IMG/VR virus record: IMGVR_UViG_3300046170_000524
DNA length: 64,000 nucleotides
Source of the DNA: a virus
Direction: 5' to 3' (one strand)
This document shows, one piece after another, positions 3-60,722 of this stretch. The translations under genes were made by a program, and so were the position numbers. Numbering within the stretch: the stretch's first letter is position 1; each line of letters begins with the position of its first letter. A model generated the notes under the pieces. The model made no database searches and was not told where the DNA came from. It saw only the letters and a list, made by a program, of their open reading frames with translations.

Positions 3-1430
3 AACCAATCAGGTCAAGAACATGTAAAGACTTTGAGGGGAGCATTAGATACAGGTAATTTCTTCAAAATGAATAAAAAATCACGATCTTTATTAAGAGA
101 GAAACAGAGTATTTCTCAAGAAGATTTTGTAATAGGTTTTGTTTTTAGAAACCAATTAAGAAAAAGTGTCCCCAATCTACTTGAAGGATTTAAAATCTTT
201 TGTAAACAAAACCCAGAATGCAAGCCAAAACTTTTACTTCATACTCATTGGGGAGAAGGTTGGGATATTAATAGATTAATAAAAGAAAAAGGGATAGATC
301 CAGAACAAATTTTAACGACATACTTCTGTGAACATTGCAAAGAGTACGAAATTAAACCCTTCAAAGGAGAGAAGCAGGATTGCGGTTTCTGTGGAAAAGA
401 AAAATCTCAGTCCACGACAAGCACAAAAGCCGGAGTTAATGAAAATCAATTAAATGAGATTTACAATTTGATGGATGTATACTGTCATCCGTTTACTAGC
501 GGAGGTCAAGAAATACCAATACAAGAAGCTAAATTAACAGAATTAATCACATTAGTAACTAATTACAGCTGCGGAGAAGACTGTTGCACTGAAGAAGCTA
601 ATAGCTTACCTTTATCCTGGACAGAGTATAGAGAACCTGGAACTCAATTTATAAAAGCCAGCACTGACCCTAAAAGCATAGCAAACCAACTCAGAAAAGC
701 GCTAAATATGCCTAGTTCAAAAAAAGAAATTATGGGTAAAAAAGCTAGAGAGTTCGTTCTCAATAACTACAGTACAGATATTATTGGAAAAAAGCTTGAA
801 CAAATTATAGATAACATGCCAGAAGTAAATTGGGACTTCAATTTCGAAATCGAAGAGAGAGATCCTTTTTATGAACCGCCTGAAATAGAAAGTGACTCAG
901 AGTGGATAACAGACTTATATAAAAATATATTAAAAGTAGAAACCAATGAATTAGAAGACGGTCATAAACATTGGATGAATAGATTAAACACTGATTTATC
1001 AAGAAAAGATGTAATTAAATATTTTAGAAGCGTAGCAGAAAAAGAAAATAAAGAAAATAAAAAAGTTGAATTAACTGAATTTTTAGATAAAGAAGACGAA
1101 GGTAGTAGATTACTTATAGTTATGCCAGAGAGAATTGGTGATATATATCTATCAACATCATTACTTCCTAATTTCAAAAAACAATATCCAAATTATAATA
1201 TATACTATGCAACAAAACCTCAATATTTTGAAATTCTAGACGGAAACCCTTACGTTCACAAATGCATCCCTTACCATGATTCGCTGGCTAATTTGCCAGC
1301 AATGGAAGGACAAGGGGAGTCGCAAGGATATTTTAATATGGTTTTTATACCATTTTTAGGCACTCAAAGAATAATAAACTTTCCACACAATACAGAAGAT
1401 AAAATACAATTCGAACTATGCACCTTTTAG
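3..1430 (+). CDS. GT4-like glycosyltransferase (5'-truncated) with Zn-ribbon insert, helical DUF4214-like segment and a C-terminal GT9-like N-lobe
   Basis: Frame open from window edge; VFRNQLRKS...NEIYNLMDVYCHPFTSGG GT-B motifs; CEHC/CGFC; C-terminal LLIVMPERIGDIYLSTSLL...GNPYVHK resembles the heptosyltransferase N-lobe. Confidence 0.75.
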   Translation, partial: NQSGQEHVKTLRGALDTGNFFKMNKKSRSLLREKQSISQEDFVIGFVFRNQLRKSVPNLLEGFKIFCKQNPECKPKLLLHTHWGEGWDINRLIKEKGIDPEQILTTYFCEHCKEYEIKPFKGEKQDCGFCGKEKSQSTTSTKAGVNENQLNEIYNLMDVYCHPFTSGGQEIPIQEAKLTELITLVTNYSCGEDCCTEEANSLPLSWTEYREPGTQFIKASTDPKSIANQLRKALNMPSSKKEIMGKKAREFVLNNYSTDIIGKKLEQIIDNMPEVNWDFNFEIEERDPFYEPPEIESDSEWITDLYKNILKVETNELEDGHKHWMNRLNTDLSRKDVIKYFRSVAEKENKENKKVELTEFLDKEDEGSRLLIVMPERIGDIYLSTSLLPNFKKQYPNYNIYYATKPQYFEILDGNPYVHKCIPYHDSLANLPAMEGQGESQGYFNMVFIPFLGTQRIINFPHNTEDKIQFELCTF

Positions 1431-2575
1431 AGCAATACGCACTTTCTTGCGGAATAAAAATTGATAAACCGTTTATAGAAACCTCTTACTACCCAACTGA
1501 AAGCGATAAATACATAACATTGCACACAAGTAATAGGATACAATCCAAAACGTATGACTACTATAATGATGTACTTGATTTAATGCACCCATTTTTGAAA
1601 AAAGAAGGAATTGATATAATTCAAATAGGTTCAAGGAATGAAGAAAAAATTAATCACTGCATACATTACCAAGGAAAAACAACAATAAAACAAGCATCTT
1701 ATTTAATAAAAAATTCTCTATTACATCTTGGTACAGATTCATTCAGTAGCCACGTTGCATCGGGATTCAATAAAAAAATAGTTAGCCTATATTCAGTACT
1801 ATTCAAAGAATGTTGTAAACCATTCTGGGGAGACAGTAACGACCATGTTTTACTTGAGCCTGATTGGTCAAAATCCAAACCTTCATTCTCGGATCAAGAG
1901 TATCCTAAATCGATTAATTCTATAATGCCAGAACAAGTAGCAAAACCTGTACTAGATCTATTGAATATAGCAAATGATTTAAACAGCATAGAAACTTTTC
2001 ATATAGGAAGCGCATACCACGCAGGCTCTTTAAGTGTTATACCCAATCATGTTATGCCAAAAAGTTTTGCGCCAAATCAACCGGCGAATATTTTAGCCAA
2101 CGAACATTTTGATGAAGTAAATATAGCCAAATGGGCATACTCTAGGAAAGTAAACATTTTTCTAGACCAACCAATGCAATATAATTACTTACAAGCAATA
2201 AGAGATAATGTTCATCAAATAAATTATTATATAAAACCCGATGACAATGAAGACTTTTTTAAATTAGTACAAAAAATGGGAATAAAACTAAAATTAATTT
2301 GCGAAGACGAAAACCATATCAACGAAGCAAGATTAAAATTCTTCGATTGGGAAGTTCACTTATCAAAAAAGAAAACAAAAAAAGACATTGACAATTATCA
2401 AAAAATATGTGATAATACTCGTTATAAAAGCGCTCAAATCATATCATCAAACAACATGCTTTACGCAAGTAAAAGCGCATGGAAAAATGATATACCTGGC
2501 AGGCACAATAAAATTATAGACGAACCTGACTTTTGGGACAACGCAATCAACTTAAAACTTTATAACAAAAAATAA
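1418..2575 (+). CDS. GT9 (heptosyltransferase-like) C-lobe protein
   Basis: IIQIG...GKTTIKQASYLIKNSLLHLGTDSFSSHVASGFNKKIVSLY matches the GT9 nucleotide-sugar-binding lobe. Confidence 0.7.
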   Translation: MHLLEQYALSCGIKIDKPFIETSYYPTESDKYITLHTSNRIQSKTYDYYNDVLDLMHPFLKKEGIDIIQIGSRNEEKINHCIHYQGKTTIKQASYLIKNSLLHLGTDSFSSHVASGFNKKIVSLYSVLFKECCKPFWGDSNDHVLLEPDWSKSKPSFSDQEYPKSINSIMPEQVAKPVLDLLNIANDLNSIETFHIGSAYHAGSLSVIPNHVMPKSFAPNQPANILANEHFDEVNIAKWAYSRKVNIFLDQPMQYNYLQAIRDNVHQINYYIKPDDNEDFFKLVQKMGIKLKLICEDENHINEARLKFFDWEVHLSKKKTKKDIDNYQKICDNTRYKSAQIISSNNMLYASKSAWKNDIPGRHNKIIDEPDFWDNAINLKLYNKK

Positions 2576-38077: not shown

Positions 38078-38079
38078 AA

Positions 38080-39111: not shown

Positions 39112-39114
39112 AGC

Positions 39115-39143
39115 TTGACATTTAATTTCATACCTGCTATAAT
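39115..39143 (+). promoter_or_regulatory. Sigma70-type promoter, leaderless
   Basis: TTGACA-17-TATAAT with TG extension; 6 nt to ATG 39150. Confidence 0.85.
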
Positions 39144-39149
39144 TCAGGC

Positions 39150-44702: not shown

Positions 44703-45266
44703 ATGATAGAAGGTATCTCAATTATAATAATTTTGTTTTTGTGTTATTTTGTATATAAATACAAACCGCAAGACGACTCCGAACTAGATGATCTAAGAAA
44801 TGAAAATGAATTTTTAAAATTAAAATTAAATGAATTCAACACAGAATCAAAAGGCAGAGAAGATAGTTTAACAAAAATTATTAATGAATTACAGTCATCT
44901 ATTCCAAAAGATAGAGAGGATTTTGAGAAGAGGAACAACATTCAGTCGCAGCAGATAAAAGAACTTCAGGAGAAGCTCGATAGCGAGACTGAGGCTCGTA
45001 AGAAAGTTCTTTCGCAGAAGAAGAGTGGGGAGGTCAGGCTTGGGCATATAGCGGAGACCCTAGCTCCCTTCTTGGATCAATTTGAATTTGATCCAGAGAG
45101 ATGTTCTTTTATGGGTAAACCGATTGACTATATATCATTCGGAGATGATGAGATAACTTTTATAGAAGTAAAAAGCGGTAACGCACAATTAAATCAAAGA
45201 CAAAGACAAATTAAACAATTAGTAAAACAAAAAGCAATATCATGGAAAGAAGTAAGGATAAAATGA
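44703..45266 (+). CDS. Membrane-anchored Holliday-junction-resolvase-like endonuclease (Endonuc_Holl type)
   Basis: N-terminal TM, coiled coil, GHIAETLAPF...MGKPIDYI...FIEVKSG..QLNQRQ. Confidence 0.8.
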   Translation: MIEGISIIIILFLCYFVYKYKPQDDSELDDLRNENEFLKLKLNEFNTESKGREDSLTKIINELQSSIPKDREDFEKRNNIQSQQIKELQEKLDSETEARKKVLSQKKSGEVRLGHIAETLAPFLDQFEFDPERCSFMGKPIDYISFGDDEITFIEVKSGNAQLNQRQRQIKQLVKQKAISWKEVRIK

Positions 45267-46039
45267 GTTTTAATTTATTAAGATTTCTCAAAGAACTTAA
45301 GGGTAAAAAAATTATCTACACGCCAAATCCAGGGAATGCGGGAGATAGCTTAATTGCTTCGAGCACTTTAGATATATTCAAAAAGATTAATTTAGACTTC
45401 GAAATCCAAAACCCTAAAAACAAATTTAACAAAAAAACAATTATCTATGGAGGAGGAGGGAATCTAATAGATAAATATGATAATTTAAGAAATTTTTTAT
45501 GGAAAAATCTTAAAGATAATCGAATAATTGTTTTGCCCCACACATTTAGTCACTGCGACAAATTATTAAATCGCATAGGTAGTAATGTAACATTAATCGC
45601 AAGAGAAAGAGTTTCATTCGATTACATCAAAACGCATATGCTATACCCCGAGAACGCTTTACTTTCAGATGACATGGCATTCCACCTTGATAATTTAGAC
45701 TTCTACATAAATGAACCTAATGCAGGCATATGCAATGCCTTTAGGCTAGATAAGGAAAAGACAAGTGTTGATATACCTGACAACAATAAGGATGTATCAG
45801 CGGATTTTATTTTTAAACAGAATACTTTAAATGAAAGTCATATAAAAATTTCTGCAGATAATTTACTTCGCTATCTATCTAAATTCGAGGAGATTAATAC
45901 AAATCGACTACATGTAGGTATAGCTGGCTCACTTCTAGGAAGAAAAGTTAATCTCTTCCCTAATTCATATTATAAAAACGAAGCGGTCTTCTCTTTCTCA
46001 ATTAAAAATAAGTATAAAAATACATCATTTATGAATTAA
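45263..46039 (+). CDS. Polysaccharide pyruvyl transferase family protein
   Basis: GNAGDSLI, GGGGNL, IARERVSF, SDDMAF, TNRLHVGI; ATGA overlap start. Confidence 0.8.
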   Translation: MSFNLLRFLKELKGKKIIYTPNPGNAGDSLIASSTLDIFKKINLDFEIQNPKNKFNKKTIIYGGGGNLIDKYDNLRNFLWKNLKDNRIIVLPHTFSHCDKLLNRIGSNVTLIARERVSFDYIKTHMLYPENALLSDDMAFHLDNLDFYINEPNAGICNAFRLDKEKTSVDIPDNNKDVSADFIFKQNTLNESHIKISADNLLRYLSKFEEINTNRLHVGIAGSLLGRKVNLFPNSYYKNEAVFSFSIKNKYKNTSFMN

Positions 46040-48902: not shown

Positions 48903-48911
48903 ATAAGTTGT

Positions 48912-48928
48912 TACACATCTATAGTGTA
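48912..48928. promoter_or_regulatory. Back-to-back TACAC...GTGTA pair
   Basis: TACAC 48912-48916 and GTGTA 48924-48928 between divergent starts 48902 and 48939. Confidence 0.6.
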
Positions 48929-48938
48929 TATATATTAT

Positions 48939-49169
48939 ATGCGTTTTTTGTTTTGCTTTCTTTTTACTATAGGCTGCTCTCATAAAAAAGAGCCTATGCC
49001 GAGAGACACACTATTTTTAGATAAAAATAGAGATTGGTATCATTTATACGAGCAAGAGCTAAAAACTGCAATATATAATAAAGATGATGCAGCATTTTAC
49101 TTCTTTTGGCCAGAATACCTTAAAGAGATAGAAAAAAGAAAGCTTAATAGTGTAAGTCAAAAACAATGA
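48939..49169 (+). CDS. Putative lipoprotein
   Basis: MRFLFCFLFTIGC lipobox-like signal. Confidence 0.55.
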   Translation: MRFLFCFLFTIGCSHKKEPMPRDTLFLDKNRDWYHLYEQELKTAIYNKDDAAFYFFWPEYLKEIEKRKLNSVSQKQ

Positions 49170-50725
49170 ATTTTAAAATATTTTTTATTTGTCACGAAGA
49201 ATCTAATTCGTATAAAGATGCGTTTAATTTATTTGATTTGCTACCAGATGAGATTAAAAATTCTTTAGAAGAAGTAGAACTAATTGACACTCTTAATGTA
49301 GTTGATTTAACTCATAATTCATTGCAGAATATTACCCCAATAAGCAAAGAACAATCTATTTCTTTTTCAACAAATCCTCAACTTATTGGATTATGTCAAA
49401 CCCACATAAATATATGGCGCAAAGTCGCAGAGCAAGAGCTTGATTTTTGCTTTGTTATTGAAGATAATGTCAATTTTTCCGACTTCTTAACGCTTTTACT
49501 TTCCAATCCAGATATTCCAGAAAAATTAGATTTTGTAAATTTCACTTCAACAGATTTCTTATCCTCCGCTTGCTATTACATTTCAAATCGAGGTGCAAAA
49601 AAACTCATATCAATTCATGAAGACCCAAAATTACTTAATTTGGACATTTTTTACGAAAATAATTTTACTAAAAATTCAATTAAATGTGAGCATCTTAAAT
49701 TTATAGAATATTGTACTCTTGAAAAAGTAGGCTTCCATTATAGAATAAATTTCATCAACAAAGATCTGATAAGATATCACCCAAAAAATTATAAAAAAAT
49801 AGAAGATAATTTTGAATTTTGGAAAAAAGACTTAAGCATTACCTCTTGCATCTGTACTTATGGCAATTATGAATCCTGCAGAGAAACTCTTTTATCATTA
49901 ATACAACAAACTATATCAGATGATAAAAATAAAATTTTTATTATAGATAATTTTCCCATAAATCAAATCGATGGTGAGAGATTAGAGCATTTTAAAAAGT
50001 TAAAGTCTCTTTGCGATTTATATGATCACTGCGAGTATATTCACACCCCAACATCTGGGTTGTCCGAGTCTCGTAATATAGCTATAGATAAATGCACAAC
50101 TGACTTAATTTTTTACATAGACGATGATGCGATAGCAAATTTTGACTTACTTGAGAATTTTAAATCTAAATTTTTAAAATTCCAGAATCTTGCGGTTTGT
50201 GGTGGAAAAGTTGTCCCCAAGTGGATCAGCGAAAGACCTGACTGGCTAAACGATAATTTACTTAAGTTTTTATCAATACAAAATTCCGATTCAAAAAATG
50301 TCATTCTTACGGAAGAATCTGAGGAATATATAGTCGGAACAAATATGTGCTTTCGCACCTCTATTCTCAAAAAATCTGGAGGGTTTAATGTCGCATTAGG
50401 AAGGCGAGGTCAAATTTTAATGAGCGGAGAAGAAGATGAATTATTTTCTAGACTAAAACAAAATTATACATGTGTTTACAGCTCAGATTGCTTGGTTTAC
50501 CATAAAATATTTCCAGCAAGACTTGAAGAACATTGGTTTATAAAACGATGTGCTTGGCAATTAATTTCTAACAAATTTATCTTAGGACAAAAACACTCCT
50601 ACCCAGAAGAGTTAGAGATTTTTCTCAACCAAAACAAAGATAAACTATTTGCAAAAAATCTAGATTCTAAAAGTTTTTCAGATAAATTAAGCTATATTCA
50701 ATTACTGTTAGAATATCTTTTATAA
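49166..50725 (+). CDS. GT25-like plus GT2 fusion glycosyltransferase
   Basis: N: GLCQTHINIW...VIEDN, CYYISNRGAKKL; C: CICTY, IIDN, GLSESRN, YIDDDA. Confidence 0.8.
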   Translation: MNFKIFFICHEESNSYKDAFNLFDLLPDEIKNSLEEVELIDTLNVVDLTHNSLQNITPISKEQSISFSTNPQLIGLCQTHINIWRKVAEQELDFCFVIEDNVNFSDFLTLLLSNPDIPEKLDFVNFTSTDFLSSACYYISNRGAKKLISIHEDPKLLNLDIFYENNFTKNSIKCEHLKFIEYCTLEKVGFHYRINFINKDLIRYHPKNYKKIEDNFEFWKKDLSITSCICTYGNYESCRETLLSLIQQTISDDKNKIFIIDNFPINQIDGERLEHFKKLKSLCDLYDHCEYIHTPTSGLSESRNIAIDKCTTDLIFYIDDDAIANFDLLENFKSKFLKFQNLAVCGGKVVPKWISERPDWLNDNLLKFLSIQNSDSKNVILTEESEEYIVGTNMCFRTSILKKSGGFNVALGRRGQILMSGEEDELFSRLKQNYTCVYSSDCLVYHKIFPARLEEHWFIKRCAWQLISNKFILGQKHSYPEELEIFLNQNKDKLFAKNLDSKSFSDKLSYIQLLLEYLL

Positions 50726-51721
50726 ATGAAAAAAATTTTAAGTTTTTCCAGCAGTATAAAAAAAGACTCGATCATTTGTCTTTGTCCAATGCGCAATGAA
50801 GAGCATATTTTACATAGCTTCCTAGACCACTATTATTCGCACGGAGTCTCTCATTTTGTTTTTTTTGACAATTTATCTGATGATAATACAATTAATATAC
50901 TAAAAGATTTAAGCTCAAAATATAATATTGAAGCTTATATATGCGAAGAATCTTTTATTGCTTCCAAATGGGGTAGCAATTGGGCTAATGATTTTATGCA
51001 AAAATATTGCATTGATAATTGGTGCATCACTATTGATGCTGATGAATTTTTTATGCCAAAAAATAACCAAAAGATAATAGATTTAATCAGCAATCTTGAA
51101 GCACGTAAATTAAATTCTGCGAGATCAATACTCGTAGATATGTATCCAAAAAACTTAAATTCTGTACATAACCAAACTATAGAAAGTTCTTGTTTTTTTG
51201 ATCGGTTTAATGAAATATATTACAAAGATGGCTACAGCGATTTTGGTCAAAAATATGTCATGGGAGGACTTAGAAAAAGAGTTTATGATTCGTTTAATAT
51301 GATCAGTAAATGCAGTTTATTCAAAAACGAATTTTATTTATCTCACCATGTTAGCGGGGGATGGCACTGGATCAAACCTTTATCTGAATTTTACAACTTC
51401 TATCTTAATAATATAGCCATAGCACCAGTTTCATCAACATCATATTTTGATAAAAAATCTTACCTTGAAGCCGTTAAAAAAAGCTTAGAGACCGTTAGAG
51501 ATACAGAAGCATTTTGCGCTCTTTTGCATTATAAATTTTTAAGAAAAGATATCTACGCATTTTTCCAAGAAAGAGTTGAAAGAAATCAAGATTGGAATGA
51601 TAGCGAAGAATATAAAAATTATATTTCTCAAAAAGAAACATCATTTTTTCATGAGAGATACAGCGTAGATTCTTCTGATAATATCAATTTAGTATATAGC
51701 GAATTAATTGATAAATTATGA
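50726..51721 (+). CDS. GT-A glycosyltransferase (GT2_4/GT92-like)
   Basis: MRNEEHIL..FLDHY...FDNLSDDNT; ITIDADEF. Confidence 0.8.
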   Translation: MKKILSFSSSIKKDSIICLCPMRNEEHILHSFLDHYYSHGVSHFVFFDNLSDDNTINILKDLSSKYNIEAYICEESFIASKWGSNWANDFMQKYCIDNWCITIDADEFFMPKNNQKIIDLISNLEARKLNSARSILVDMYPKNLNSVHNQTIESSCFFDRFNEIYYKDGYSDFGQKYVMGGLRKRVYDSFNMISKCSLFKNEFYLSHHVSGGWHWIKPLSEFYNFYLNNIAIAPVSSTSYFDKKSYLEAVKKSLETVRDTEAFCALLHYKFLRKDIYAFFQERVERNQDWNDSEEYKNYISQKETSFFHERYSVDSSDNINLVYSELIDKL

Positions 51722-52440
51722 AAGCATACATGATAACATACATGAAATCCAAAGAGAGGGTTGAAAACTTTAAGCTGGCCAAGACTTTGTCTGATGGTAA
51801 TTTAAATTTATTTGAAGCGGTAGACGGACTTGAAAACTATGAATCTTTATGTGAATTTGATCGCAAGCATCATTTTCACACAGATTTTTACAAAGATAAA
51901 TGGAAAAACATGCCTGGAAAATTAGGTTGCAATTTATCTTATTCAGTTTTATTTAGCAAAATACTCAAAGAAGATCTCAAAGAAAATTGGTTTTTAATAT
52001 TAGAAGACGATGCTGGAGTAAAAAAAGGCTTTATCGAAGAAGCTGAATTAATTGCCGAAAAAGCCGATTCAATAGGCACTCATTTTGTACGGCTTCATGT
52101 GGGAGAAGGAAAAGGGTTTTGGCCAGAAGACACAGGTTATTGGAATTTTTCGAAATCGCAACAGTTTAATGAAGCTTTTTTAGTAGGTCACAATTTTTAT
52201 AAAATGATTCCGCAGTGGTACACTACCGCCCAATTAATTAACAAGGAGGGGATTAGAAGATTGCTTGAAGTTCGCCCTTGGAATGAAAACATTGATTTGC
52301 TATTAAATAGCTTTTCGCATCTTATTTTCGCAACGGCATACCCCTCTGAAAGTTTTTTCTCAAAAGGAAGTTGTGGAGTCGAAGATGATCAAAGCGAAAT
52401 GGGAAGTGTAATCTATGAAAACCAAACTTTTTTATCATGA
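51718..52440 (+). CDS. GT25-family glycosyltransferase
   Basis: FEAVDG, GKLGCNLSY, LILEDDA. Confidence 0.8.
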   Translation: MKAYMITYMKSKERVENFKLAKTLSDGNLNLFEAVDGLENYESLCEFDRKHHFHTDFYKDKWKNMPGKLGCNLSYSVLFSKILKEDLKENWFLILEDDAGVKKGFIEEAELIAEKADSIGTHFVRLHVGEGKGFWPEDTGYWNFSKSQQFNEAFLVGHNFYKMIPQWYTTAQLINKEGIRRLLEVRPWNENIDLLLNSFSHLIFATAYPSESFFSKGSCGVEDDQSEMGSVIYENQTFLS

Positions 52441-53153
52441 TAATATCACACTCAAAAAAATTTATTTTTATACATATTCCAAAATGCGCAGGCACATCAA
52501 TTAGAAAAAAAATAGAAAACCATTTCCATAAAAACGGAATGCTCGAAATGGAAGATTTAATTTCTTTTAAAGTGGGATATGACGAGCTACCTATATCAGG
52601 CACTTCGGCAAACTGGGAAATAATACATGATTATACAGAAGATCAGTTAAGGCTGTATGAAGAATTTCATCAACATAGCACCTTTTCTTTAGTAGAGTCT
52701 GTTTTTAATAGGGAAAAAATTAACTTAGACGAGTATTTTAAGTTTGCATTTTGCAGAAACCCTTGGGACAGAAAAGTATCTCAATATTTTTTTGGTAGAC
52801 AGCAAGCGGAAAAAGGACACGAATGGGCAGTGTCGAACAAAAATCTTCAAAAACCATTTAAACATTTTGCTTCGAGAGCTGAAAACTGGGGAAAATTTAG
52901 AGATGGGCAGCATCAGTGGGTTTTAAATAAAGAAGGTAAATTAGGCTTAGACTTTATCGGCAAATCAGAAAATCTTCAGCAAGATTTTAATTATGTTTGC
53001 GAAAAAATAGGCTTGCCTCAGATGGAGTTGCCGCATTCTAATAAATCTAAACACAAACATTACACAGAGTACTATGACGAGGAAGCTAAAAATTCGTTCG
53101 CCAAAAACTACTCAAAAGACATTGAATTTTTTAATTACAAATTTGGAGAATGA
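52437..53153 (+). CDS. Sulfotransferase (Sulfotransfer_2 type)
   Basis: 5'-PSB FIHIPKCAGTS; 3'-PB FCRNPWDRKVS. Confidence 0.9.
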   Translation: MIISHSKKFIFIHIPKCAGTSIRKKIENHFHKNGMLEMEDLISFKVGYDELPISGTSANWEIIHDYTEDQLRLYEEFHQHSTFSLVESVFNREKINLDEYFKFAFCRNPWDRKVSQYFFGRQQAEKGHEWAVSNKNLQKPFKHFASRAENWGKFRDGQHQWVLNKEGKLGLDFIGKSENLQQDFNYVCEKIGLPQMELPHSNKSKHKHYTEYYDEEAKNSFAKNYSKDIEFFNYKFGE

Positions 53154-53154
53154 A

Positions 53155-54138
53155 ATGTCATACATCGATCAAGCTGTTAAATTTCGGATGGGAAAGTGGC
53201 ATTTTCAAAAATATCCATCTAATTTAGAGCTTGACTGGGAAGATTATTCTTTATTTAGCCCCGACGACCAAAGATTTTTGTATTGGATAGAGAAATGTAA
53301 ATTTTTTGAAATCAAAAAAAACCCCGGTTTAATTTTAGATTCGAGAGATCACTTGAATGAAAAAAATCTAGAGTTAAGGATTAATCGATTACAGAAAAAT
53401 CATCATCTCAACCTTAAAAAATATCCATACGTATCTCACAATCGCCCTGCTGACAAAGATTATTCTATACTATGGTCTCTGAGCCAAACGCACGAAAGAA
53501 TAGTATCGAAATGGCAAGATCACTATAATTTTGAAGATAAAAAAGACGAAATCGTATGGAGGGGAGTCGCATCAGGGTTAGACCGCCAACTTAATCGCGT
53601 TGGTAAATTTTCTGATTTTAATAAAAGCATTAAAGAAGTTCAAAGGTTCATTTTTGTCAACAAATTTTCAAAAAAATATAATATAAAATTCGTTGACTTC
53701 CCCTTGAAATTTAAAAATAAATTTACTAAAGATAGATTGCAGGATTTTGATTTATTTCTTAAAAATAATCCTCACGCATTGGGCGAACAATTATCGTGGG
53801 CTCAAGATATTTGCTCTTATAAATACATACTAAACCTAGAAGGCTATGATTGGCCCTCTAGCTTATGCAAATCCTTACGGTCTAACAGTGTAACTATTGC
53901 AACGACCCCTAAGTGGCATAATATTTTACATTTTAAGCTTGAACCATGGGAGCACTATATTCCAATCAAAGATGATGGGTCGGACCTAGAGAATAAACTC
54001 GCATGGTGTAAATCCAATAACAAAGAATGTAAGAAAATCTCTGACAGGGCAAGTCTTTATATGTCTCAGTTTACCGAGGTCTCTGAAACTGAAATACAAA
54101 AAAAAATATTCAAAAAACTTCATGAAAACAGAATATAG
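53155..54138 (+). CDS. GT90/CAP10-like glycosyltransferase (start revised to MSYIDQ)
   Basis: IVWRG, YKYILNLEG, LEPWEHYIPIK.D.SDL. Confidence 0.85.
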   Translation: MSYIDQAVKFRMGKWHFQKYPSNLELDWEDYSLFSPDDQRFLYWIEKCKFFEIKKNPGLILDSRDHLNEKNLELRINRLQKNHHLNLKKYPYVSHNRPADKDYSILWSLSQTHERIVSKWQDHYNFEDKKDEIVWRGVASGLDRQLNRVGKFSDFNKSIKEVQRFIFVNKFSKKYNIKFVDFPLKFKNKFTKDRLQDFDLFLKNNPHALGEQLSWAQDICSYKYILNLEGYDWPSSLCKSLRSNSVTIATTPKWHNILHFKLEPWEHYIPIKDDGSDLENKLAWCKSNNKECKKISDRASLYMSQFTEVSETEIQKKIFKKLHENRI

Positions 54139-54754
54139 TCCTAATAAATTTCTTTTTATACATCTTCCAAAATGCGGAGGAATGTCGATGGAGCAGATCT
54201 GCAGAGATAATGGAATACTAATTGACCCAAGAAACGCAGACACTAAATATTTAAATGAAAAGTTTAATACTGATGTATATTGTAGCTTTGAGGACCAAAA
54301 AAAATTAAGTTTTTCTTTTTCTTTCGCAAGAAATCCATACGACAGGGTGGTTTCAGCCTGGAAATGCCCATGGGTTAGCGGAAAAAAAATATCTCAAAAT
54401 AATTTTAAAAATGAATTTCATGATTTTCGTGATTTCGTTTTTAATTTTTTACCTAATGAACACGACTTTTCTTTTTTTAGATGGTCTCATGTTATGCCTT
54501 TCACAGACCCAAGGTTCGCAATTTTTGACGATAAACAAGAACTTCAATTAAGTTTCTTGGGAAAACTGGAGACATATCAAGAAGATTTTGATTTCGTGTG
54601 TGATTCTATTAATATAAAAAAACAAAACTTACCTCATAAAAATAAAACTAATCATAAAAAATATACTGAATATTATGATGACGAAACTCGTCAAATCGTT
54701 GCGGAAAAATACGCAAAAGACATTGAGTATTTTGGGTACAAATTTGCGGAATAA
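54122..54754 (+). CDS. Sulfotransferase (Sulfotransfer_2 type), paralogue
   Basis: FIHLPKCGGMS; FARNPYDRVVS; C-terminus homologous to 52437-53153. Confidence 0.9.
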   Translation: MKTEYSPNKFLFIHLPKCGGMSMEQICRDNGILIDPRNADTKYLNEKFNTDVYCSFEDQKKLSFSFSFARNPYDRVVSAWKCPWVSGKKISQNNFKNEFHDFRDFVFNFLPNEHDFSFFRWSHVMPFTDPRFAIFDDKQELQLSFLGKLETYQEDFDFVCDSINIKKQNLPHKNKTNHKKYTEYYDDETRQIVAEKYAKDIEYFGYKFAE

Positions 54755-54763
54755 TTATTGAGC

Positions 54764-55567
54764 TTATTCTGGTCTTTTGCCTAAAGGTTTTCCATCTTGA
54801 CCAATTTGACCATCCCTGATCTTGGTGGCAGACACTTCTTGTAATTCTTTACTTAGCTCTAGTTGTTCGATATTATAACCAACACCTCTTCCATAAAATA
54901 CATCCATAATATTAGGCAGTTCAACAACCTTAATTTTGTTTCCGAATTCGATACAAGCAGAATGTATTTCTTTTTTGACTTTTTCAAAATCATAGGGATT
55001 ACTATCATCAATTCCTCCAACATCTCTTAATGCAATACAGCATTGCCCTGTTCTTTTAATTGCTTCCGCAACAAGGCTTTTGTGCCCAATATGAAATGGC
55101 TGATATCTACCTATGAGCAATGCAGTTGGAGCTTGGTTATCCCACGCTTCAGTTTCATTTAATTTACCAACAACTTTACTAACCCACTCTTCTGGAGTTC
55201 CATCTATTAATCTCAGGTCATAGTTCAAAGGCTTTTCAAACATCTTGTTTGTATCTTCATATCTACCTTCTTGAATTCTATCTACCCATATTGTAAAATC
55301 TGCATTAAATGCCTTCCTAGTTTCTTGGGTTGGACACACAAAATCCGCAATCACATAATTACCTCCCATTTTTGCCCAGTCACACAACTTGCTCATTCTT
55401 TTTGCATGAGAAAGCCGATCCTCTTCCGAGAAACCCAGTTCCGAATAGATGTCCTGCCTTACAGCATCTGCATTAAACCAAGCGGCGTTTAACTTGGCAA
55501 CGAGCTTTTCAGCTAGTGTCGTCTTTCCTGATCCAGGAAGTCCCATTATAAGAATTTTTCTTTTCAT
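54764..55567 (-). CDS. cysC: APS kinase-like domain fused to a HIGH-family nucleotidyltransferase
   Basis: GLPGSGKTT, NADAVR, LGFSEEDR, FVCP; then GRYQPFHIGH and VSATKIR. Confidence 0.75.
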   Translation of the reverse strand: MKRKILIMGLPGSGKTTLAEKLVAKLNAAWFNADAVRQDIYSELGFSEEDRLSHAKRMSKLCDWAKMGGNYVIADFVCPTQETRKAFNADFTIWVDRIQEGRYEDTNKMFEKPLNYDLRLIDGTPEEWVSKVVGKLNETEAWDNQAPTALLIGRYQPFHIGHKSLVAEAIKRTGQCCIALRDVGGIDDSNPYDFEKVKKEIHSACIEFGNKIKVVELPNIMDVFYGRGVGYNIEQLELSKELQEVSATKIRDGQIGQDGKPLGKRPE

Positions 55568-55577
55568 ATTTTTTTAG

Positions 55578-55582
55578 TACAC
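55578..55582 (-). promoter_or_regulatory. GTGTA motif upstream of cysC fusion
   Basis: TTGTGTACT on - strand, 10 nt gap to ATG 55567. Confidence 0.5.
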
Positions 55583-55590: not shown

Positions 55591-55950
55591 TTAAGTTAAA
55601 TAAGTTAATTTTAATTTTTCACATATCGCTATTTTTTCAGCCTTAGACAATAAACGATATTGATTTTGCGCATATTCATTTATCCTCATTTCTCTTTTTT
55701 CGGGAGATCCATTCACCCAATCTAAAACTAAAGAATGATTAATATTATCAATTAAATAATTTATTATTTCTTTTTCTAGTAATTGGCTATAAATTTCAAT
55801 TCTTTCTTTTGTAGACATACCTTCGTATTTCATTTTTGCCTCTAACATACATCCTGTCCTCTTCAAAATTTCTGACGGAACTTGTGAAGCCACAACGCAT
55901 TCTTGATACAAATAATCAAGCACCATTTGACGCTCTTTTCTTTTTAGCAT
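55591..55950 (-). CDS. Hypothetical protein
   Basis: 119-aa ORF; GTGTA motif at 55960-55964 upstream. Confidence 0.65.
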   Translation of the reverse strand: MLKRKERQMVLDYLYQECVVASQVPSEILKRTGCMLEAKMKYEGMSTKERIEIYSQLLEKEIINYLIDNINHSLVLDWVNGSPEKREMRINEYAQNQYRLLSKAEKIAICEKLKLTYLT

Positions 55951-56002
55951 ACATATATATACACCCCGAAAACCGCTATTTATGCAGGTTTGATAAATTT
56001 TC

Positions 56003-56778: not shown

Positions 56779-56807
56779 TTGACTTTATAAACATAATGTG
56801 TTAGTAT
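56779..56807 (+). promoter_or_regulatory. Sigma70-type promoter, leaderless
   Basis: TTGACT-17-TAGTAT with TG extension; 6 nt to ATG 56814. Confidence 0.7.
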
Positions 56808-56866
56808 TCATTCATGGATAAAGAATCAGATCTATCTTATGTTAAAGAATTCAACCCGACATCCCT

Positions 56867-57364: not shown

Positions 57365-57389
57365 CAATATTTTAAAAATTTATTAAACT
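57361..57389 (+). promoter_or_regulatory. Sigma70-type promoter, leaderless
   Basis: TTGACA-17-TAAACT; 6 nt to ATG 57396. Confidence 0.75.
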
Positions 57390-57395
57390 TTAATT

Positions 57396-58712: not shown

Positions 58713-59243
58713 ATGGCAGGAATACGCACAGATAAAGAAAAATTAAATCGCACACTAGAAATTCTAGCGAATATTTTACGTGAAGAGAATATAAATGATT
58801 GGTTTATATTTTTTGGGACATTGCTTGGAATTATTCGAGAAGATAGCTGCATAGAGGGTGATGACGATTTAGATATCATGATTAATTGCGATTATCAACA
58901 ATTAAGGAATGTATTCGAGAAAAGGGGTTTCGTCTTCATGCAGGGTAAGTATGGGATTAAAAACCCTGATAAGATATTAAAAAGTGAACCAACGCAAGAA
59001 TTTGGATCAATTGATTTTTATATGTGCAATGTCAATGAATTGGGTGACTTCCATACGCCTTGGCATGGAGTAATCGCAACCAATTCTTATATTGATATTA
59101 ATCAGAAATCACTCGAAAAGCTTGCTTGGAACAACACTGCTTTAAACATTCCCAATAATTATAAAGAAAAGCTTACTAATATGTATGGTGATTGGAAAAC
59201 CCCACAATCAAAAAGTTGCAAAATGCATATAGGGAAAGTATAA
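58713..59243 (+). CDS. LicD/fukutin-like nucleotidyltransferase-fold phosphotransferase
   Basis: WFIFFGTLLGIIRE...DDDLDI. Confidence 0.8.
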   Translation: MAGIRTDKEKLNRTLEILANILREENINDWFIFFGTLLGIIREDSCIEGDDDLDIMINCDYQQLRNVFEKRGFVFMQGKYGIKNPDKILKSEPTQEFGSIDFYMCNVNELGDFHTPWHGVIATNSYIDINQKSLEKLAWNNTALNIPNNYKEKLTNMYGDWKTPQSKSCKMHIGKV

Positions 59244-59244
59244 A

Positions 59245-59871
59245 ATGGACAAACAATACTGGGACACATTTTACAAAAACTACGCAAATAGAGATGACAT
59301 TTCAGAATGTAGTACATTTGCAAGTTTTTGCTGTGATAATTTTTTAAACAAAGAACCAAAAACAATCACAGATCTTGGCTGCGGTAACGCTAGAGACGCT
59401 AAACATTTTGCGAGAAATCATTTAGTATATGGCATAGATCAAAGTATCGACGATCAAGTTATAAATAGAAACAGATTGCCATCATTAAAGTTAATAGAAC
59501 AAGATTTTGTTCGCGATGAATATAATTTTAGTGAAAAAGTAGATGTTTTTTATTCTAGATTTACAATTCATTCAATAACAGAGGAAGACCAGAAAGAATT
59601 ATTGCCTAAAGTTTATAATTATTTGAACTCAGGGGGATTGTTCTGCATTGAAGTTCGCACCACCAAAGATACAAAATTTGGAGTTGGCAAGCATATATGT
59701 GACACAACATATTTTAATGATGGGCACACTCGTAGATTCGTAGATTCACAAAAGTTTTTAAATACAGTTCTATCTCTTGGATTTAAATTGCTTTATTTCA
59801 ACGAGCAAGATAATTTGTCTATTTACAAAGACGACAACCCTGTATTAATGAGAATAATTTTAGAGAAATAA
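59245..59871 (+). CDS. Class I SAM-dependent methyltransferase
   Basis: ITDLGCGNARD, YGIDQS, FYSRFTIHSI. Confidence 0.88.
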   Translation: MDKQYWDTFYKNYANRDDISECSTFASFCCDNFLNKEPKTITDLGCGNARDAKHFARNHLVYGIDQSIDDQVINRNRLPSLKLIEQDFVRDEYNFSEKVDVFYSRFTIHSITEEDQKELLPKVYNYLNSGGLFCIEVRTTKDTKFGVGKHICDTTYFNDGHTRRFVDSQKFLNTVLSLGFKLLYFNEQDNLSIYKDDNPVLMRIILEK

Positions 59872-59873
59872 TA

Positions 59874-60722
59874 ATGCACATTATATTAGGCAAAAACGGA
59901 TACATAGCAGAAGCCATCATAAAAGAATTAAAATCACGCGATTTACCTCATGTCGCTTGGAGTAGAAGTGATGTTGATTATACAAATCTTGCAGAACTCA
60001 AATATAATCTTTATATTTTAGGAGACGATTTACATATAATTAATTGCGCAGGATATATTGGCAAACCAAATGTTGATGCTTGTGAATTAGCAAAAGCTGA
60101 TTGCATAGAAGGTAATGTTTTGCTTCCTGCGATGTTGGCTCAATTGTGTCACGAAAGCAAATATAATTTTACGCAAATATCTTCGGGCTGCATCTATGGT
60201 GGATATGAAAAAGATTTCACCGAACAAGATGCTCCTAATTTTGATTTCCAAAATGGTAGTTTTTATAGCGGAACTAAAGCTCTTGCAGAGAAAGTTGTAT
60301 TGCAAAATAATGCAAATAGCTATATCTTTAGATTGCGTATTCCATTTGATGAATATGCATCTCCAAGAAACTACTTGACTAAATTACTATCTTACGATAC
60401 TTTATTAGATGCGAAAAATTCTCTATCTCATAGAGCTGATTTTGCCAAATATACAATGGATTTAATACAGCAAAAAGTACCACATGGAATTTATAATATC
60501 ACAAATAAAGGTAGCGTTACCACAAAAGATGTGGTTGAACTAATTAAAAAATATAATTTATCAGATAAAGATTTTAAATTTTTTGATAATTTAGAATCTT
60601 TCAGCAAAGAGACTATTGCCCCAAGATCAAACTGCGTCCTTGACACAACTAAAATCGAACAATATATTAAAATAAGAACGGCAACAGAAGCATTAGAAGA
60701 AGCAATTCAAAAATACACTTGA
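59874..60722 (+). CDS. NDP-4-keto-6-deoxysugar reductase/epimerase (RmlD/UER1-like SDR)
   Basis: LGKNGYIA, INCAGYIGKPNVDACE, SSGCIY, SFYSGTK. Confidence 0.8.
   Translation: MHIILGKNGYIAEAIIKELKSRDLPHVAWSRSDVDYTNLAELKYNLYILGDDLHIINCAGYIGKPNVDACELAKADCIEGNVLLPAMLAQLCHESKYNFTQISSGCIYGGYEKDFTEQDAPNFDFQNGSFYSGTKALAEKVVLQNNANSYIFRLRIPFDEYASPRNYLTKLLSYDTLLDAKNSLSHRADFAKYTMDLIQQKVPHGIYNITNKGSVTTKDVVELIKKYNLSDKDFKFFDNLESFSKETIAPRSNCVLDTTKIEQYIKIRTATEALEEAIQKYT

What the first reader, a model, noticed from the sequence alone, without database searches (positions are those of the whole stretch)
48912..55582. Candidate phage-encoded PAPS-dependent glycan sulfation system under a putative late promoter
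A tightly coupled + operon runs lipoprotein, GT25-GT2 fusion, GT2_4, GT25, sulfotransferase, GT90, sulfotransferase. It converges on an APS-kinase fusion on the - strand. Seen: both sulfotransferases keep the PAPS-binding motifs (HxPKC.G.S and RNP.DR.VS). The operon and the kinase are each preceded by the GTGTA motif that also heads tail genes. Known: sulfotransferases need PAPS, made by ATP sulfurylase then APS kinase. Inference: the phage builds and sulfates a glycan late in infection, for example on virion proteins as camouflage or for adhesion, or on the host envelope for superinfection exclusion. More sugar enzymes sit at 1-2.6, 45.3, 47.3 and 58.7-60.7 kb.
Basis: partly seen in the sequence, partly recalled or inferred. 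Interest (0 to 1): 0.85.

Follow-up and report, generated by a model that had tools for sequence, protein, structure and literature searches.

The report
Phage glycan-sulfation operon with PAPS supply
A large uncultured marine phage carries an operon of sugar-adding and sulfate-adding enzymes facing a conserved small enzyme that most likely makes their sulfate donor (PAPS), so this abundant phage lineage probably builds sulfated sugar chains during infection, a capacity for which I found no experimental study in phages.

Summary
At 48939-54754 (+) seven tightly packed genes encode a small lipoprotein-like protein, four glycosyltransferases and two Sulfotransfer_2 enzymes with intact PAPS-binding motifs. 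They converge on a 267-aa gene (54764-55567, -) that joins a trimmed APS kinase to a small NMNAT-like nucleotidyltransferase.

Comparative genomics supports a sulfation system.
- The fusion is conserved (70-94% identity) in related 120-220 kb marine phages.
- All 13 near-complete relatives carry sulfotransferases (up to 10 Sulfotransfer_2 matches; one has only Sulfotransfer_1/3-type genes).
- None of the four relatives tested has Sat or CysD.
- In distant phages the only sulfotransferase in the record sits beside the fusion.
- In Ralstonia phage phiRSL1 the kinase alone sits in a glycosyltransferase and sulfotransferase operon.

SAR11 bacteria carry the same kinase and transferase pair. The two SAR11 genomes tested lack Sat and CysD.

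Not supported: the "late promoter" label. GTGTA is a start-linked, -10-like element. It heads non-structural genes and no recognisable tail gene.

The acceptor (host envelope glycan, virion protein or DNA) is unknown. That the small domain is an ATP sulfurylase is inferred, not shown. Earlier AI notes of this scan reached the same "mini PAPS synthase" idea on other phage DNA.

The parts
48924..48938 (+). GTGTATATATATTAT: GTGTA / TG+TATATA -10-like element ending just before the operon's ATG. It is mirrored by GTGTA at 48912-48916 (-) in front of the divergent peptidase gene.
   Evidence: conserved TGTA(A/T) core in front of the kinase gene in relatives
48939..49169 (+). 76-aa lipoprotein-like protein (MRFLFCFLFTIGC...), first gene of the operon
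   Evidence: sequence read directly; no Pfam or NCBIfam family; homologs at 37-55% identity in 9 related loci
49166..50725 (+). 519-aa glycosyltransferase: GT2 domain (residues 228-401) with a weak GT25-like N-terminal piece
   Evidence: Pfam; NCBIfam weak AglG/HpsE-like match; no transmembrane segment
50726..51721 (+). 331-aa Glyco_tranf_2_4 / GT92-like glycosyltransferase
   Evidence: Pfam
51718..52440 (+). 240-aa GT25 glycosyltransferase (LOS/LPS galactosyltransferase family)
   Evidence: Pfam (44.9 bits, full-length match)
52437..53153 (+). 238-aa Sulfotransfer_2 sulfotransferase (ST1, P0002) with 5'-PSB (HIPKCAGTS) and 3'-PB (RNPWDRKVS) motifs
   Evidence: RNA-library contigs at 52252-53060
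53074..54138 (+). GT90-like glycosyltransferase of up to 354 aa. The first ATG overlaps ST1 by 80 nt, so the true start may lie further downstream.
   Evidence: Pfam (65.3 bits, residues 241-333)
54122..54754 (+). 210-aa Sulfotransfer_2 sulfotransferase (ST2, P0003) with HLPKCGGMS and RNPYDRVVS
   Evidence: RNA-library contig at 54242-54460
54764..55567 (-). 267-aa fusion (P0001): trimmed APS-kinase domain (residues 1-~140) plus mini NMNAT-like HxGH nucleotidyltransferase (~146-267). Candidate PAPS supply.
   Evidence: co-occurrence with sulfotransferases
55578..55582 (-). GTGTA motif 15 nt before the kinase ATG
55591..55950 (-). 119-aa protein of unknown function directly upstream of the kinase gene, with its own GTGTA at 55960-55964
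   Evidence: homologs in only 4 related loci
45242..46039 (+). polysaccharide pyruvyl transferase (further glycan-decorating gene of the same strand block)
   Evidence: Pfam
58713..60722 (+). LicD-family phosphotransferase, SAM methyltransferase and RmlD-like reductase (further glycan genes)
   Evidence: Pfam; orf98 at 58414, just upstream, carries the GTGTA-N9-ATG motif
3..2575 (+). GT1+DUF4214 protein and GT9 (heptosyltransferase-family) protein, converging on the giant tail-fibre gene
   Evidence: Pfam; PHROGs

Best explanation
The region is a variable 'glycan island' of a large uncultured marine tailed phage. It holds a seven-gene operon: a lipoprotein-like protein, four soluble glycosyltransferases and two Sulfotransfer_2 enzymes. 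The operon builds and sulfates an oligosaccharide in the infected cell's cytoplasm.

The operon converges on a far more conserved gene whose product supplies the sulfate donor. Its N-terminal domain is a trimmed APS kinase (APS + ATP -> PAPS). This step is well supported. Its C-terminal 120-residue NMNAT-like HxGH domain most likely adenylylates sulfate (ATP + sulfate -> APS + PPi). If so, the 267-aa protein is a self-sufficient mini PAPS synthase. This step is inferred, at about 50-55%.

The transferases differ strongly between close relatives while the PAPS gene stays constant. That pattern suggests diversifying selection on the glycan. The acceptor is unknown. My ranking is: a host envelope glycolipid or lipid-linked glycan first (GT9, GT25, LicD and pyruvyl-transferase are families that work on cell-surface glycans), virion proteins second, DNA bases third.

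Each transcription unit seems to start at a TG-extended -10-like GTGTA element that would give leaderless or near-leaderless mRNAs. The timing of expression is unknown.
For: FAMILIES AND MOTIFS
- Pfam assignments for all enzymes.
- PAPS-binding K, RNP and S are invariant across 21 sulfotransferase homologs.
- No transmembrane segment in any enzyme.

KINASE DOMAIN
- Best sequence and fold matches are all APS kinases: 2yvu and 7yq0 at E 2e-7 to 9e-7; Foldseek 7yq1, 2ofw and others, target-normalised TM-score 0.6-0.77.
- The alignment covers the P-loop, the DGD-like NAD..R motif, the LGFSxxDR motif and the FISP-like FVCP motif.

CO-OCCURRENCE WITH SULFOTRANSFERASES
- 26 of 80 loci holding the fusion have a sulfotransferase within 10 kb, up to six of them.
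- 12 of 13 complete close relatives have 1-10 Sulfotransfer_2 matches. The 13th (G024) has Sulfotransfer_1/3-type genes 4.7 kb from the fusion.
- In three distant lineages (fusion 43% identical), the one or two Sulfotransfer_2 matches in records of 58-238 kb lie 30 nt to 5 kb from the fusion; the nearest is always within 1.6 kb.
- Sulfotransfer_2 is the most recurrent Pfam family among the fusion's neighbours in 19 distant loci. No NAD-metabolism family appears among the 25 most recurrent neighbour families listed.
- In phiRSL1, a homologous kinase without the transferase domain heads an operon with glycosyltransferases and a 'Galactose-3-O-sulfotransferase'.

NO CANONICAL SULFATE ACTIVATION
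- No Sat and no CysD/CysH in G002-G005.
- No NAMPT in 13 of 13 complete relatives.

PYROPHOSPHATASE
- Inorganic pyrophosphatase is present in 10 of 13 complete relatives.
- It lies within 1.1 kb of the fusion in six loci.

SAR11
- The kinase and transferase pair is a syntenic core gene pair.
- Two genomes have AprB and canonical CoaD, CoaE and NadD. They have no Sat and no CysD.
- Papers report that sat is present in only one SAR11 strain (PMC3448164). They also report sulfotransferases in the SAR11 hypervariable region (10.64898/2026.04.03.716430).

CONSERVATION CONTRAST IN L001
- Kinase 94% identical; sulfotransferases 35-40%; glycosyltransferases 29-35%.

EXPRESSION
- RNA-library contigs cover ST1, ST2 and the kinase. 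This is weak evidence.
Against: - No biochemical data exist for any of these proteins.
- The kinase scores far below the NCBIfam equivalog cut-offs (44 against 138.7 bits). It also lacks the usual lid and C-terminal half.
- By sequence the transferase domain is closest to NadM/archaeal NMNAT (E 2e-8). No ATP sulfurylase appears up to E = 10.
- Fold search does not discriminate: PPAT Z 9.8, NadM 9.0, Sat 8.2.
- Fusion homologs occur in phages with no detectable sulfotransferase. These are Xylella/Stenotrophomonas Sano- and Salvoviruses, where the gene sits beside a NADAR protein, and the complete records G036 and G046.
- In SAR11 the pair sits in an operon with an enoyl-CoA hydratase and a CoA-binding protein, not with sulfation genes. 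AprBA could supply APS there without any ATP sulfurylase.
- Pyrophosphatase also sits beside other small cytidylyltransferase-like genes in some relatives, so that link is not specific to the fusion.
- No pyrophosphatase or CysQ-like gene was found in this window.
- The acceptor is unknown. No priming transferase, flippase or polymerase was seen in the window.
Confidence: 0.7

Rival explanations
1. Sulfation is real, but the fusion is only an APS kinase that phosphorylates host-made APS (from host CysDN, Sat or AprBA). The NMNAT-like domain does something else, such as adenylylating a different phosphate ester, acting as a regulatory or scaffolding domain, or re-making NAD.
For: - phiRSL1 and RsoM2USA carry the kinase without the transferase domain. 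In phiRSL1 a sulfotransferase is nevertheless in the same operon.
- The transferase domain is NadM-like by sequence.
- Stand-alone kinase and stand-alone transferase genes exist.
- SAR11 has AprB, which can make APS.
Against: - The two domains are fused or adjacent in thousands of sequences, with every catalytic motif invariant.
- The pair is kept in SAR11, which already has NadD, CoaD and CoaE but no Sat or CysD.
- Pyrophosphatase is adjacent to the fusion in six loci.
- The C-terminal half of NMNAT, which as I recall holds the nicotinamide site, has no aligned counterpart here.
Confidence: 0.22
2. The fusion has nothing to do with sulfation. It is a NadR-like NAD salvage enzyme (ribosylnicotinamide kinase plus NMN adenylyltransferase), or another cofactor or sugar-nucleotide enzyme (kinase plus adenylyl/cytidylyltransferase, as in HldE or CoA synthase). 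The sulfotransferases use host PAPS.
For: - NadM, NadR and PPAT are the best matches for the C-terminal domain.
- In Sano- and Salvoviruses the gene lies beside a NADAR (NAD/ADP-ribose) protein and no sulfotransferase is present.
- JGI annotations call some homologs 'nicotinamide riboside kinase/phosphopantetheine adenylyltransferase'.
- GT9 and LicD in the window use ADP- or CDP-activated donors (the donor types are from my own knowledge).
Against: - The kinase domain's best matches by sequence and fold are all APS kinases, over the substrate-binding motifs. The NadR kinase family matches only at the P-loop.
- The gene-neighbourhood link is to sulfotransferases specifically, in several independent lineages and for three sulfotransferase families.
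- No NAMPT in 13 relatives.
- No NAD-metabolism family appears among the 25 most recurrent neighbour families listed.
- SAR11 already has NadD, CoaD and CoaE.
Confidence: 0.1
3. The product is not a cell-surface or virion glycan but a hypermodified DNA base, a glycosylated and perhaps sulfated nucleobase that protects phage DNA from host nucleases.
For: - In phiRSL1 the homologous kinase and a sulfotransferase sit among TET-associated (DNA-base) glycosyltransferases and sugar-nucleotide enzymes.
- The operon here lies among nucleotide-metabolism genes: dCMP deaminase, dUTPase, a nucleoside deoxyribosyltransferase-like protein and GMP reductase.
Against: - No TAGT, T4-type DNA glucosyltransferase, TET/JBP or base hydroxymethylase was found among the window ORFs scanned.
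- The transferase families here (GT2, GT25, GT90, GT92-like, GT9, LicD, pyruvyl transferase) are glycan or glycoprotein families.
- Six to eleven sulfotransferase matches per genome, plus many glycosyltransferases, point to a complex glycan.
Confidence: 0.07

Closest known systems
Bacterial sulfation cassettes with a dedicated PAPS supply: rhizobial NodP/NodQ + NodH (Nod-factor sulfation) and similar (own knowledge)
   Same: An accessory, mobile gene set couples its own sulfate activation to a carbohydrate sulfotransferase and to glycosyltransferases. PAPS is made for sulfation, not for cysteine synthesis.
   Different: - NodPQ are CysD/CysN/CysC homologs. Here there is no CysD, CysN or Sat.
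- In their place stand a trimmed APS kinase and a 120-residue NMNAT-like domain.
- The carrier is a lytic-type phage genome.
- The sulfotransferases are Sulfotransfer_2 and are multiplied to 6-11 matches per genome in many relatives.
Bifunctional PAPS synthases (metazoan PAPSS1/2, PDB 1x6v/1xjq; Aquifex and fungal Sat-APS kinase fusions)
   Same: - Domain logic: an APS kinase joined to an adenylyltransferase of the HxxH (HUP) superfamily. In PAPSS the kinase is also N-terminal.
- The kinase domain is homologous.
   Different: - 267 residues against about 620.
- The second domain gives no match to the ATP-sulfurylase family (PF01747). By sequence it is NadM/NMNAT-like.
- The kinase lid is shortened.
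- Activity is untested.
Virion glycosylation in mycobacteriophages (Freeman et al. 2023, Cell Host Microbe, PMC10527164; cited through PMC12801897) and capsid glycosylation by chlorovirus-encoded glycosyltransferases (own knowledge)
   Same: Virus-encoded soluble glycosyltransferases act in the cytoplasm on a viral product. This would be one possible acceptor here.
   Different: - As I recall, no sulfation or PAPS supply is part of those systems.
- As I recall, the glycosyltransferases there lie next to capsid and tail genes. Here the operon lies in a non-structural block.
- No glycosylated virion protein is known for this phage.
Ralstonia jumbo phage phiRSL1 ORF232-238 (annotated APS kinase, glycosyltransferases, nucleotidyltransferases, Galactose-3-O-sulfotransferase)
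   Same: A cultured phage has a homologous APS-kinase domain (43% identity) in one operon with glycosyltransferases and a sulfotransferase.
   Different: - The kinase has no NMNAT-like domain.
- The glycosyltransferases are TET-associated DNA-base glycosyltransferases.
- The sulfotransferase belongs to another family.
- My paper searches found no functional study of it.
Phage-mediated host surface glycan modification (O-antigen seroconversion by Gtr/Oac-type genes of temperate phages; own knowledge)
   Same: Phage genes alter a host envelope glycan. The usual rationale is to block superinfection or re-adsorption.
   Different: - Those systems use one to three genes that work with the host's lipid carrier.
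- No sulfation is involved.
- Here the gene set is far larger, hypervariable, and carried by a large, apparently lytic phage.

Membership tests
Sulfotransfer_2 (PF03567) carbohydrate sulfotransferases | Whole-protein score above the Pfam gathering cut-off over most of the profile | tested here: met
   59.6 and 58.1 bits against a cut-off of 22, covering profile positions 4-252 and 9-252 of 252
Sulfotransfer_2 (PF03567) carbohydrate sulfotransferases | 5'-phosphosulfate-binding loop (PKxGxT/S with the catalytic Lys) and 3'-phosphate-binding RNPxxRxxS motif | tested here: met
   HIPKCAGTS / RNPWDRKVS and HLPKCGGMS / RNPYDRVVS. K17, R70, N71 and S78 are invariant in 21 homologs.
Sulfotransfer_2 (PF03567) carbohydrate sulfotransferases | PAPS-dependent sulfate transfer to a sugar acceptor | not testable with these tools
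No solved relative was found by sequence.
APS kinase (CysC; PF01583, TIGR00455) | P-loop plus the APS-binding motifs of the N-terminal half (DGD..R, LGFS..DR, FISP) | tested here: met
   GLPGSGKT, NADAVR, LGFSEEDR and FVCP align with the APS kinases 2yvu, 7yq0 and 2pey. Pfam gives 49.5 bits against a cut-off of 21.1. These residues are invariant in 26 homologs.
APS kinase (CysC; PF01583, TIGR00455) | Full-length match to the family model, including the lid and C-terminal half, at equivalog level | tested here: not met
   Matches stop at about residue 90 (profile positions 5-92 of 152). TIGR00455 gives 44.1 bits against a cut-off of 138.7. The lid is replaced by the family-specific EGRYEDTNKMF motif.
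APS kinase (CysC; PF01583, TIGR00455) | APS-kinase fold | tested here: met
   The top Foldseek hits are all APS kinases (7yq1, 2ofw, 4fxp, 4rfv; target-normalised TM-score 0.6-0.77). The model has mean pLDDT 84.5.
Sat-type ATP sulfurylase (PF01747) | Sequence match to the family | tested here: not met
   No PF01747 hit at E <= 0.01. No ATP sulfurylase chain up to E = 10 with the domain profile.
Sat-type ATP sulfurylase (PF01747) | Shared catalytic-domain fold (HUP nucleotidyltransferase with HxxH) | tested here: inconclusive
   1v47 gives Z 8.2 over 118 aligned residues, tied with PPAT (9.8), NadM (9.0) and NadR (8.5). Foldseek E-values are 1e-3 to 2e-2 for all of these.
NadM / archaeal NMN adenylyltransferase | GxFQPFHxGH and ISxTxxR ATP-binding motifs | tested here: met
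   GRYQPFHIGH and VSATKIR, invariant in homologs
NadM / archaeal NMN adenylyltransferase | Full-length family match, including the part after the third strand (which as I recall binds NMN) | tested here: not met
   The profile aligns only its first ~60 positions to 2qjt, 1f9a and 1ej2. TIGR01527 gives 19.9 bits against a cut-off of 181. The domain is about 120 residues, against about 170.
Glycosyltransferase families GT2, GT25, GT90 | Pfam score above the gathering cut-off | tested here: met
   The N-terminal GT25 piece of the 519-aa protein is borderline (25.7 against 24, with no stretch passing alone). The GT90 match covers a quarter of the profile.
Bacterial lipoprotein | Signal peptide followed by a lipobox with an invariant Cys | tested here: inconclusive
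   MRFLFCFLFTIG-C was read from the sequence. Position -3 is not the usual Leu, and no dedicated predictor was available.
Phage late promoter | Late timing, or exclusive association with structural and lysis genes | tested here: not met
   The 8 GTGTA-N9/10-ATG sites head a peptidase, the kinase, the operon and small unknown ORFs. None of the PHROG-recognised tail genes has one. Timing itself cannot be tested here.

The most novel reading that the evidence does not exclude
The 120-residue NMNAT-like domain is a third, unrecognised class of ATP sulfurylase. That would make this 267-aa protein the smallest known PAPS synthase, and the enzyme that supplies activated sulfate both in an abundant lineage of marine phages and in SAR11, which is reported to lack sat. 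With it, these phages would decorate either their virions or the infected cell with hypervariable sulfated glycans, using up to about ten sulfotransferases per genome. That would be a phage-made analogue of the sulfated glycans typical of marine eukaryotes.
Probability: 0.45. Interest if true: 0.88.

Novelty: new variant of a known kind. Interest (0 to 1): 0.72.

Why it matters
- Sulfated glycans are a hallmark of marine algae and animals, and they shape particle stickiness, grazing and carbon export. In my paper searches I found no study in which a phage was shown to make them.
- The one paper I read that discusses phage sulfotransferases says their function is unclear (PMC10580990).
- The gene families here are very abundant in ocean metagenomes. 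The fusion has more than 7,000 clusters at 90% identity, and the sulfotransferase has about 2,400.
- If these phages sulfate their virions or their hosts' surfaces, that bears on host recognition, on superinfection exclusion and on how virus particles behave in seawater.
- If the small domain is an ATP sulfurylase, that would add a new enzyme class. It would also revise the sulfur-metabolism picture of SAR11.

Tried and rejected
- Nucleotide search of the operon against 50,697 phage records found no match.
- A weak Sulfotransfer_2 hit in Xylella phage Bacata (E 0.0015) was checked. The 194-aa ORF has no sulfotransferase motifs and, judged by eye only, may be a DNA-binding or small-terminase-type protein. 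I rejected it.
- phiRSL1 ORF238's C-terminus and the gene after the RsoM2USA kinase were compared with the transferase-domain profile. No similarity was found.
- Fold searches of the transferase domain (Foldseek and VIA-align wide) could not separate NMNAT, PPAT and ATP sulfurylase.
- From memory I thought the YGRDVGY motif might match the GRDHAG loop of Sat. Sequence searches gave no support, so I do not use it as evidence.
- The sigma-70 and terminator consensus scan was at chance level.
- No pyrophosphatase homolog is present in the window.
- The CoA-synthase reading (PPAT plus a 3'-kinase) was considered, because PPAT is the top fold hit and the SAR11 operon holds CoA-related genes. I set it aside because SAR11 has canonical CoaD and CoaE.
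- Fusions of the kinase with the DUF4118 membrane domain gave no functional clue.
- Parts of the region without RNA-library contigs say nothing about expression.
- Complex prediction was not used, because no protein-protein binding claim is made.
- The host was not determined. MAG labels on close homologs (Halobacteriovorax, Cellvibrionales, Woesebacteria) look like binned phage contigs and were not used.

Full report
WHAT IS THERE

The window is part of a large tailed phage. The minus strand from 3.4 to 31 kb encodes a tape-measure protein, a J-like central fibre, a minor tail protein and a 2,476-aa fibre (PHROGs). G+C content is about 33% throughout.

From 48939 to 54754 on the plus strand, seven genes overlap by 4 bases or abut. 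Pfam assigns them as follows.
- 48939-49169: a 76-aa protein with a signal-peptide and lipobox-like start.
- 49166-50725: a 519-aa GT2 enzyme with a weak GT25-like N-terminus.
- 50726-51721: a Glyco_tranf_2_4/GT92-like enzyme.
- 51718-52440: a GT25 enzyme.
- 52437-53153: a Sulfotransfer_2 enzyme (ST1).
- 53074-54138: a GT90-like enzyme.
- 54122-54754: a second Sulfotransfer_2 enzyme (ST2).

The Lys, Arg-Asn and Ser of those motifs are invariant in 21 homologs. None of the enzymes has a membrane-spanning segment.

Nine bases beyond the last stop codon, on the other strand, ends a 267-aa gene (54764-55567). It has two parts.
- The first ~90 residues match APS kinases by sequence, and the N-terminal domain matches them by predicted fold.
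- The last ~120 residues carry GRYQPFHIGH and SATKIR, the signature of NadM/archaeal NMN adenylyltransferases.

One correction: the operon's first gene starts at ATG 48939. The GTG at 48924 belongs to the GTGTA motif.

THE GTGTA MOTIF

The pentamer is not enriched in the window (50 seen, 58 expected). However, all eight occurrences of GTGTA-N9/10-ATG lie at the first ATG of an ORF of 76 codons or more.
- These sites are the operon, the kinase gene, ORF119 upstream of the kinase, the divergently transcribed papain-like peptidase (true start 48902), orf98 in front of LicD, and three others.
- In relatives, a TGTA(A/T) core sits 13-17 nt before the kinase ATG in about 30 of 43 loci, although the surrounding sequence has diverged.
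- The element reads as TG followed by TATATA or TACTAA. It is placed so that transcription would begin at or next to the ATG.
- It therefore looks like an extended -10-type promoter giving leaderless messages.

Nothing marks the motif as late. No PHROG-recognised tail gene has it at this spacing. The operon also lies among genes for dCMP deaminase, dUTPase, a Holliday-junction resolvase, a RuvB-like ATPase and GMP reductase. A consensus promoter and terminator scan was at chance level.

IS IT A SYSTEM? EVIDENCE FROM RELATIVES

Abundance.
- The kinase-transferase fusion is very common. At least 152 IMG/VR contigs encode it.
- More than 7,000 clusters at 90% identity match it, and 2,580 clusters at 50% identity.
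- The longest contigs are 190-240 kb.

Co-occurrence in close relatives (fusion 70-94% identical).
- 12 of 13 near-complete genomes carry 1-10 Sulfotransfer_2 matches.
- The thirteenth carries Sulfotransfer_1/3-type genes 4.7 kb from the fusion.
- Four relatives that were searched have no Sat-type ATP sulfurylase and no CysD/CysH.

Conservation contrast.
- The transferases are much less conserved than the fusion. In the nearest locus (L001) the fusion is 94% identical, the sulfotransferases are 35-40% and the glycosyltransferases 29-35%.
- So a constant donor-supply gene sits beside a fast-changing set of transferases.
- In L001-L003 the sulfotransferase genes converge on the kinase gene, as they do here.

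Distant T4-like phages (fusion 41-47% identical).
- In three separate lineages, the one or two Sulfotransfer_2 matches in records of 58-238 kb lie 30 nt to 5 kb from the fusion; the nearest is always within 1.6 kb.
- Among 119 neighbouring proteins from 19 such loci, Sulfotransfer_2 is the most recurrent family. No NAD-metabolism family appears among the 25 most recurrent neighbour families listed.

Cultured phages.
- In Ralstonia phage phiRSL1, a homologous kinase without the second domain opens an operon with glycosyltransferases, sugar-nucleotide enzymes and an annotated galactose-3-O-sulfotransferase.

Taken together, three sulfotransferase families in independent lineages are linked to this kinase. 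I take the APS-kinase role as well supported.

THE SECOND DOMAIN

What the searches show.
- By sequence it is NadM-like, but only over its first 60 residues. No ATP sulfurylase is matched.
- By fold it is a generic HxxH nucleotidyltransferase. PPAT, NadM, NadR and Thermus ATP sulfurylase all score Z 8-10.
- Homology therefore does not tell the substrate.

Indirect evidence that it adenylylates sulfate.
- It is fused or adjacent to the kinase throughout the family, and all its motifs are invariant.
- The four relatives tested have no other ATP sulfurylase, and none of the 13 complete relatives has NAMPT.
- Ten of 13 relatives encode an inorganic pyrophosphatase. That enzyme pulls the unfavourable sulfurylase reaction forward.
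- The pyrophosphatase lies within 1.1 kb of the fusion in six loci.
- SAR11 keeps the kinase and transferase pair as a syntenic core gene pair.
- Two SAR11 genomes have canonical NadD, CoaD and CoaE and AprB, but no Sat and no CysD. One of them has a sulfotransferase.
- Published work says that only one SAR11 strain has sat, and mentions an 'APS kinase' (PMC3448164). It also says that the SAR11 hypervariable region carries sulfotransferases while assimilatory sulfate reduction is absent (10.64898/2026.04.03.716430).

Evidence against this reading.
- Fusion homologs exist in phages without any detectable sulfotransferase. In Sano- and Salvoviruses the gene lies beside a NADAR protein. The complete records G036 and G046 also have none.
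- In SAR11 the pair sits in an operon with an enoyl-CoA hydratase and a CoA-binding protein.
- AprBA could supply APS without any sulfurylase.
- Pyrophosphatase also neighbours other small cytidylyltransferase-like genes in some relatives.

I put the mini-PAPS-synthase reading at about one half.

WHAT IS SULFATED?

This is unknown.
- All the enzymes are soluble, so the chemistry is cytoplasmic.
- GT9, GT25, LicD and pyruvyl transferases are families that work on LPS cores and surface polysaccharides (own knowledge). This favours a host envelope glycan finished at the inner face of the membrane and exported by host machinery.
- Virion glycosylation, as in mycobacteriophages (PMC10527164), is the main alternative.
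- A DNA-base glycan, as the phiRSL1 context suggests, is a minor one. No DNA-type glycosyltransferase or base hydroxymethylase was seen among the window ORFs scanned.

Expression.
- Metatranscriptome contigs from one study cover ST1, ST2, the kinase, the peptidase and LicD at 99% identity or more.
- DNA carry-over cannot be excluded, and contigs say nothing about timing.

VERDICT

- The core interpretation, a phage-encoded PAPS-dependent glycan sulfation system, is supported by conservation and gene neighbourhood. Nothing has been tested biochemically.
- The 'late promoter' label is unsupported.
- I found no paper describing such a system in phages. One paper on OM43 phages states that the role of phage sulfotransferases is unclear (PMC10580990).
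- Earlier AI notes of this scan reached the same 'mini PAPS synthase' idea on other phage genomes. I treat these as leads, not as evidence. I found the SAR11 link independently. I tested their AprBA and pyrophosphatase leads myself.

Noticed in passing
window 48902-48939: Two GTGTA motifs lie back to back (48916-48912 on the - strand, 48924-48928 on the + strand), 7 nt apart. Each is 14-15 nt from the ATG of a divergent gene: the papain-family C1 peptidase (47994-48902, -) and the glycan operon (+). This looks like a compact divergent promoter pair. The peptidase ORF as listed (start 48983) would overlap the operon, so the true start is probably 48902.
   Followed up: partly
window 56785-57395: One RNA-library contig joins 56785 to 57395 with 27 other letters in between. 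It skips exactly the HNH endonuclease ORF (56867-57364). A population variant therefore lacks this HNH gene, which points to a mobile homing-endonuclease insertion.
   Followed up: no
L160:7998-10824 (Candidatus Pelagibacter sp. complete genome) and about 44 syntenic SAR11 loci: In SAR11 the kinase (134 aa) and the mini nucleotidyltransferase (124 aa) are separate adjacent genes. They form a tight operon with an enoyl-CoA hydratase and a CoA-binding protein. In a few genomes two YeeE/YedE-type 'sulphur transport' half-genes follow. The meaning of the CoA link is unexplained.
   Followed up: partly
P0123, P0190, P0200, P0201, P0216, P0238, P0243 (metagenome proteins): The kinase domain, or the whole fusion, is repeatedly joined to the DUF4118 membrane domain, at either end. 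Some versions of this enzyme would therefore be membrane-anchored. The reason is unknown.
   Followed up: no
L087 (Ralstonia phage phiRSL1, ORF232-238): An APS-kinase homolog, three TET-associated (DNA-base) glycosyltransferases, an APH-like kinase, a sugar-1-phosphate nucleotidyltransferase and a galactose-3-O-sulfotransferase form one operon. The product could be a sulfated glycosylated DNA base in a cultured phage.
   Followed up: partly
Related records G005 (27.3-29.8 kb), G008 (25.3-27.3 kb), G012 (118.6-120.5 kb), G009 (175.9-176.7 kb): Some relatives carry a second small cluster: a cytidylyltransferase-like protein of about 140 aa, an inorganic pyrophosphatase and (in G005, G008 and G012) an Inositol_P-family phosphatase that could be CysQ-like. 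It may be a PAP-removal or sugar-nucleotide module. It is absent from this window.
   Followed up: no
L084 and L088 (Xylella phage Bacata, Stenotrophomonas phage Bhz60): In 56-kb Casjensviridae phages the fusion homolog overlaps a NADAR (COG3236) gene. It also lies four to seven genes from an annotated 'cysteine dioxygenase' and a MazG-like pyrophosphatase. No sulfotransferase was found in Bacata, the one record searched. This is the best counter-example to a purely sulfation-linked role.
   Followed up: partly
window 37025-40775: Two adjacent proteins carry H-type lectin domains; the second also has a below-cut-off BppL_N (baseplate) match. They are followed by a nucleoside 2-deoxyribosyltransferase-like protein and a GMP reductase/IMPDH-family enzyme. 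The lectin proteins may be sugar-binding receptor-binding proteins.
   Followed up: no
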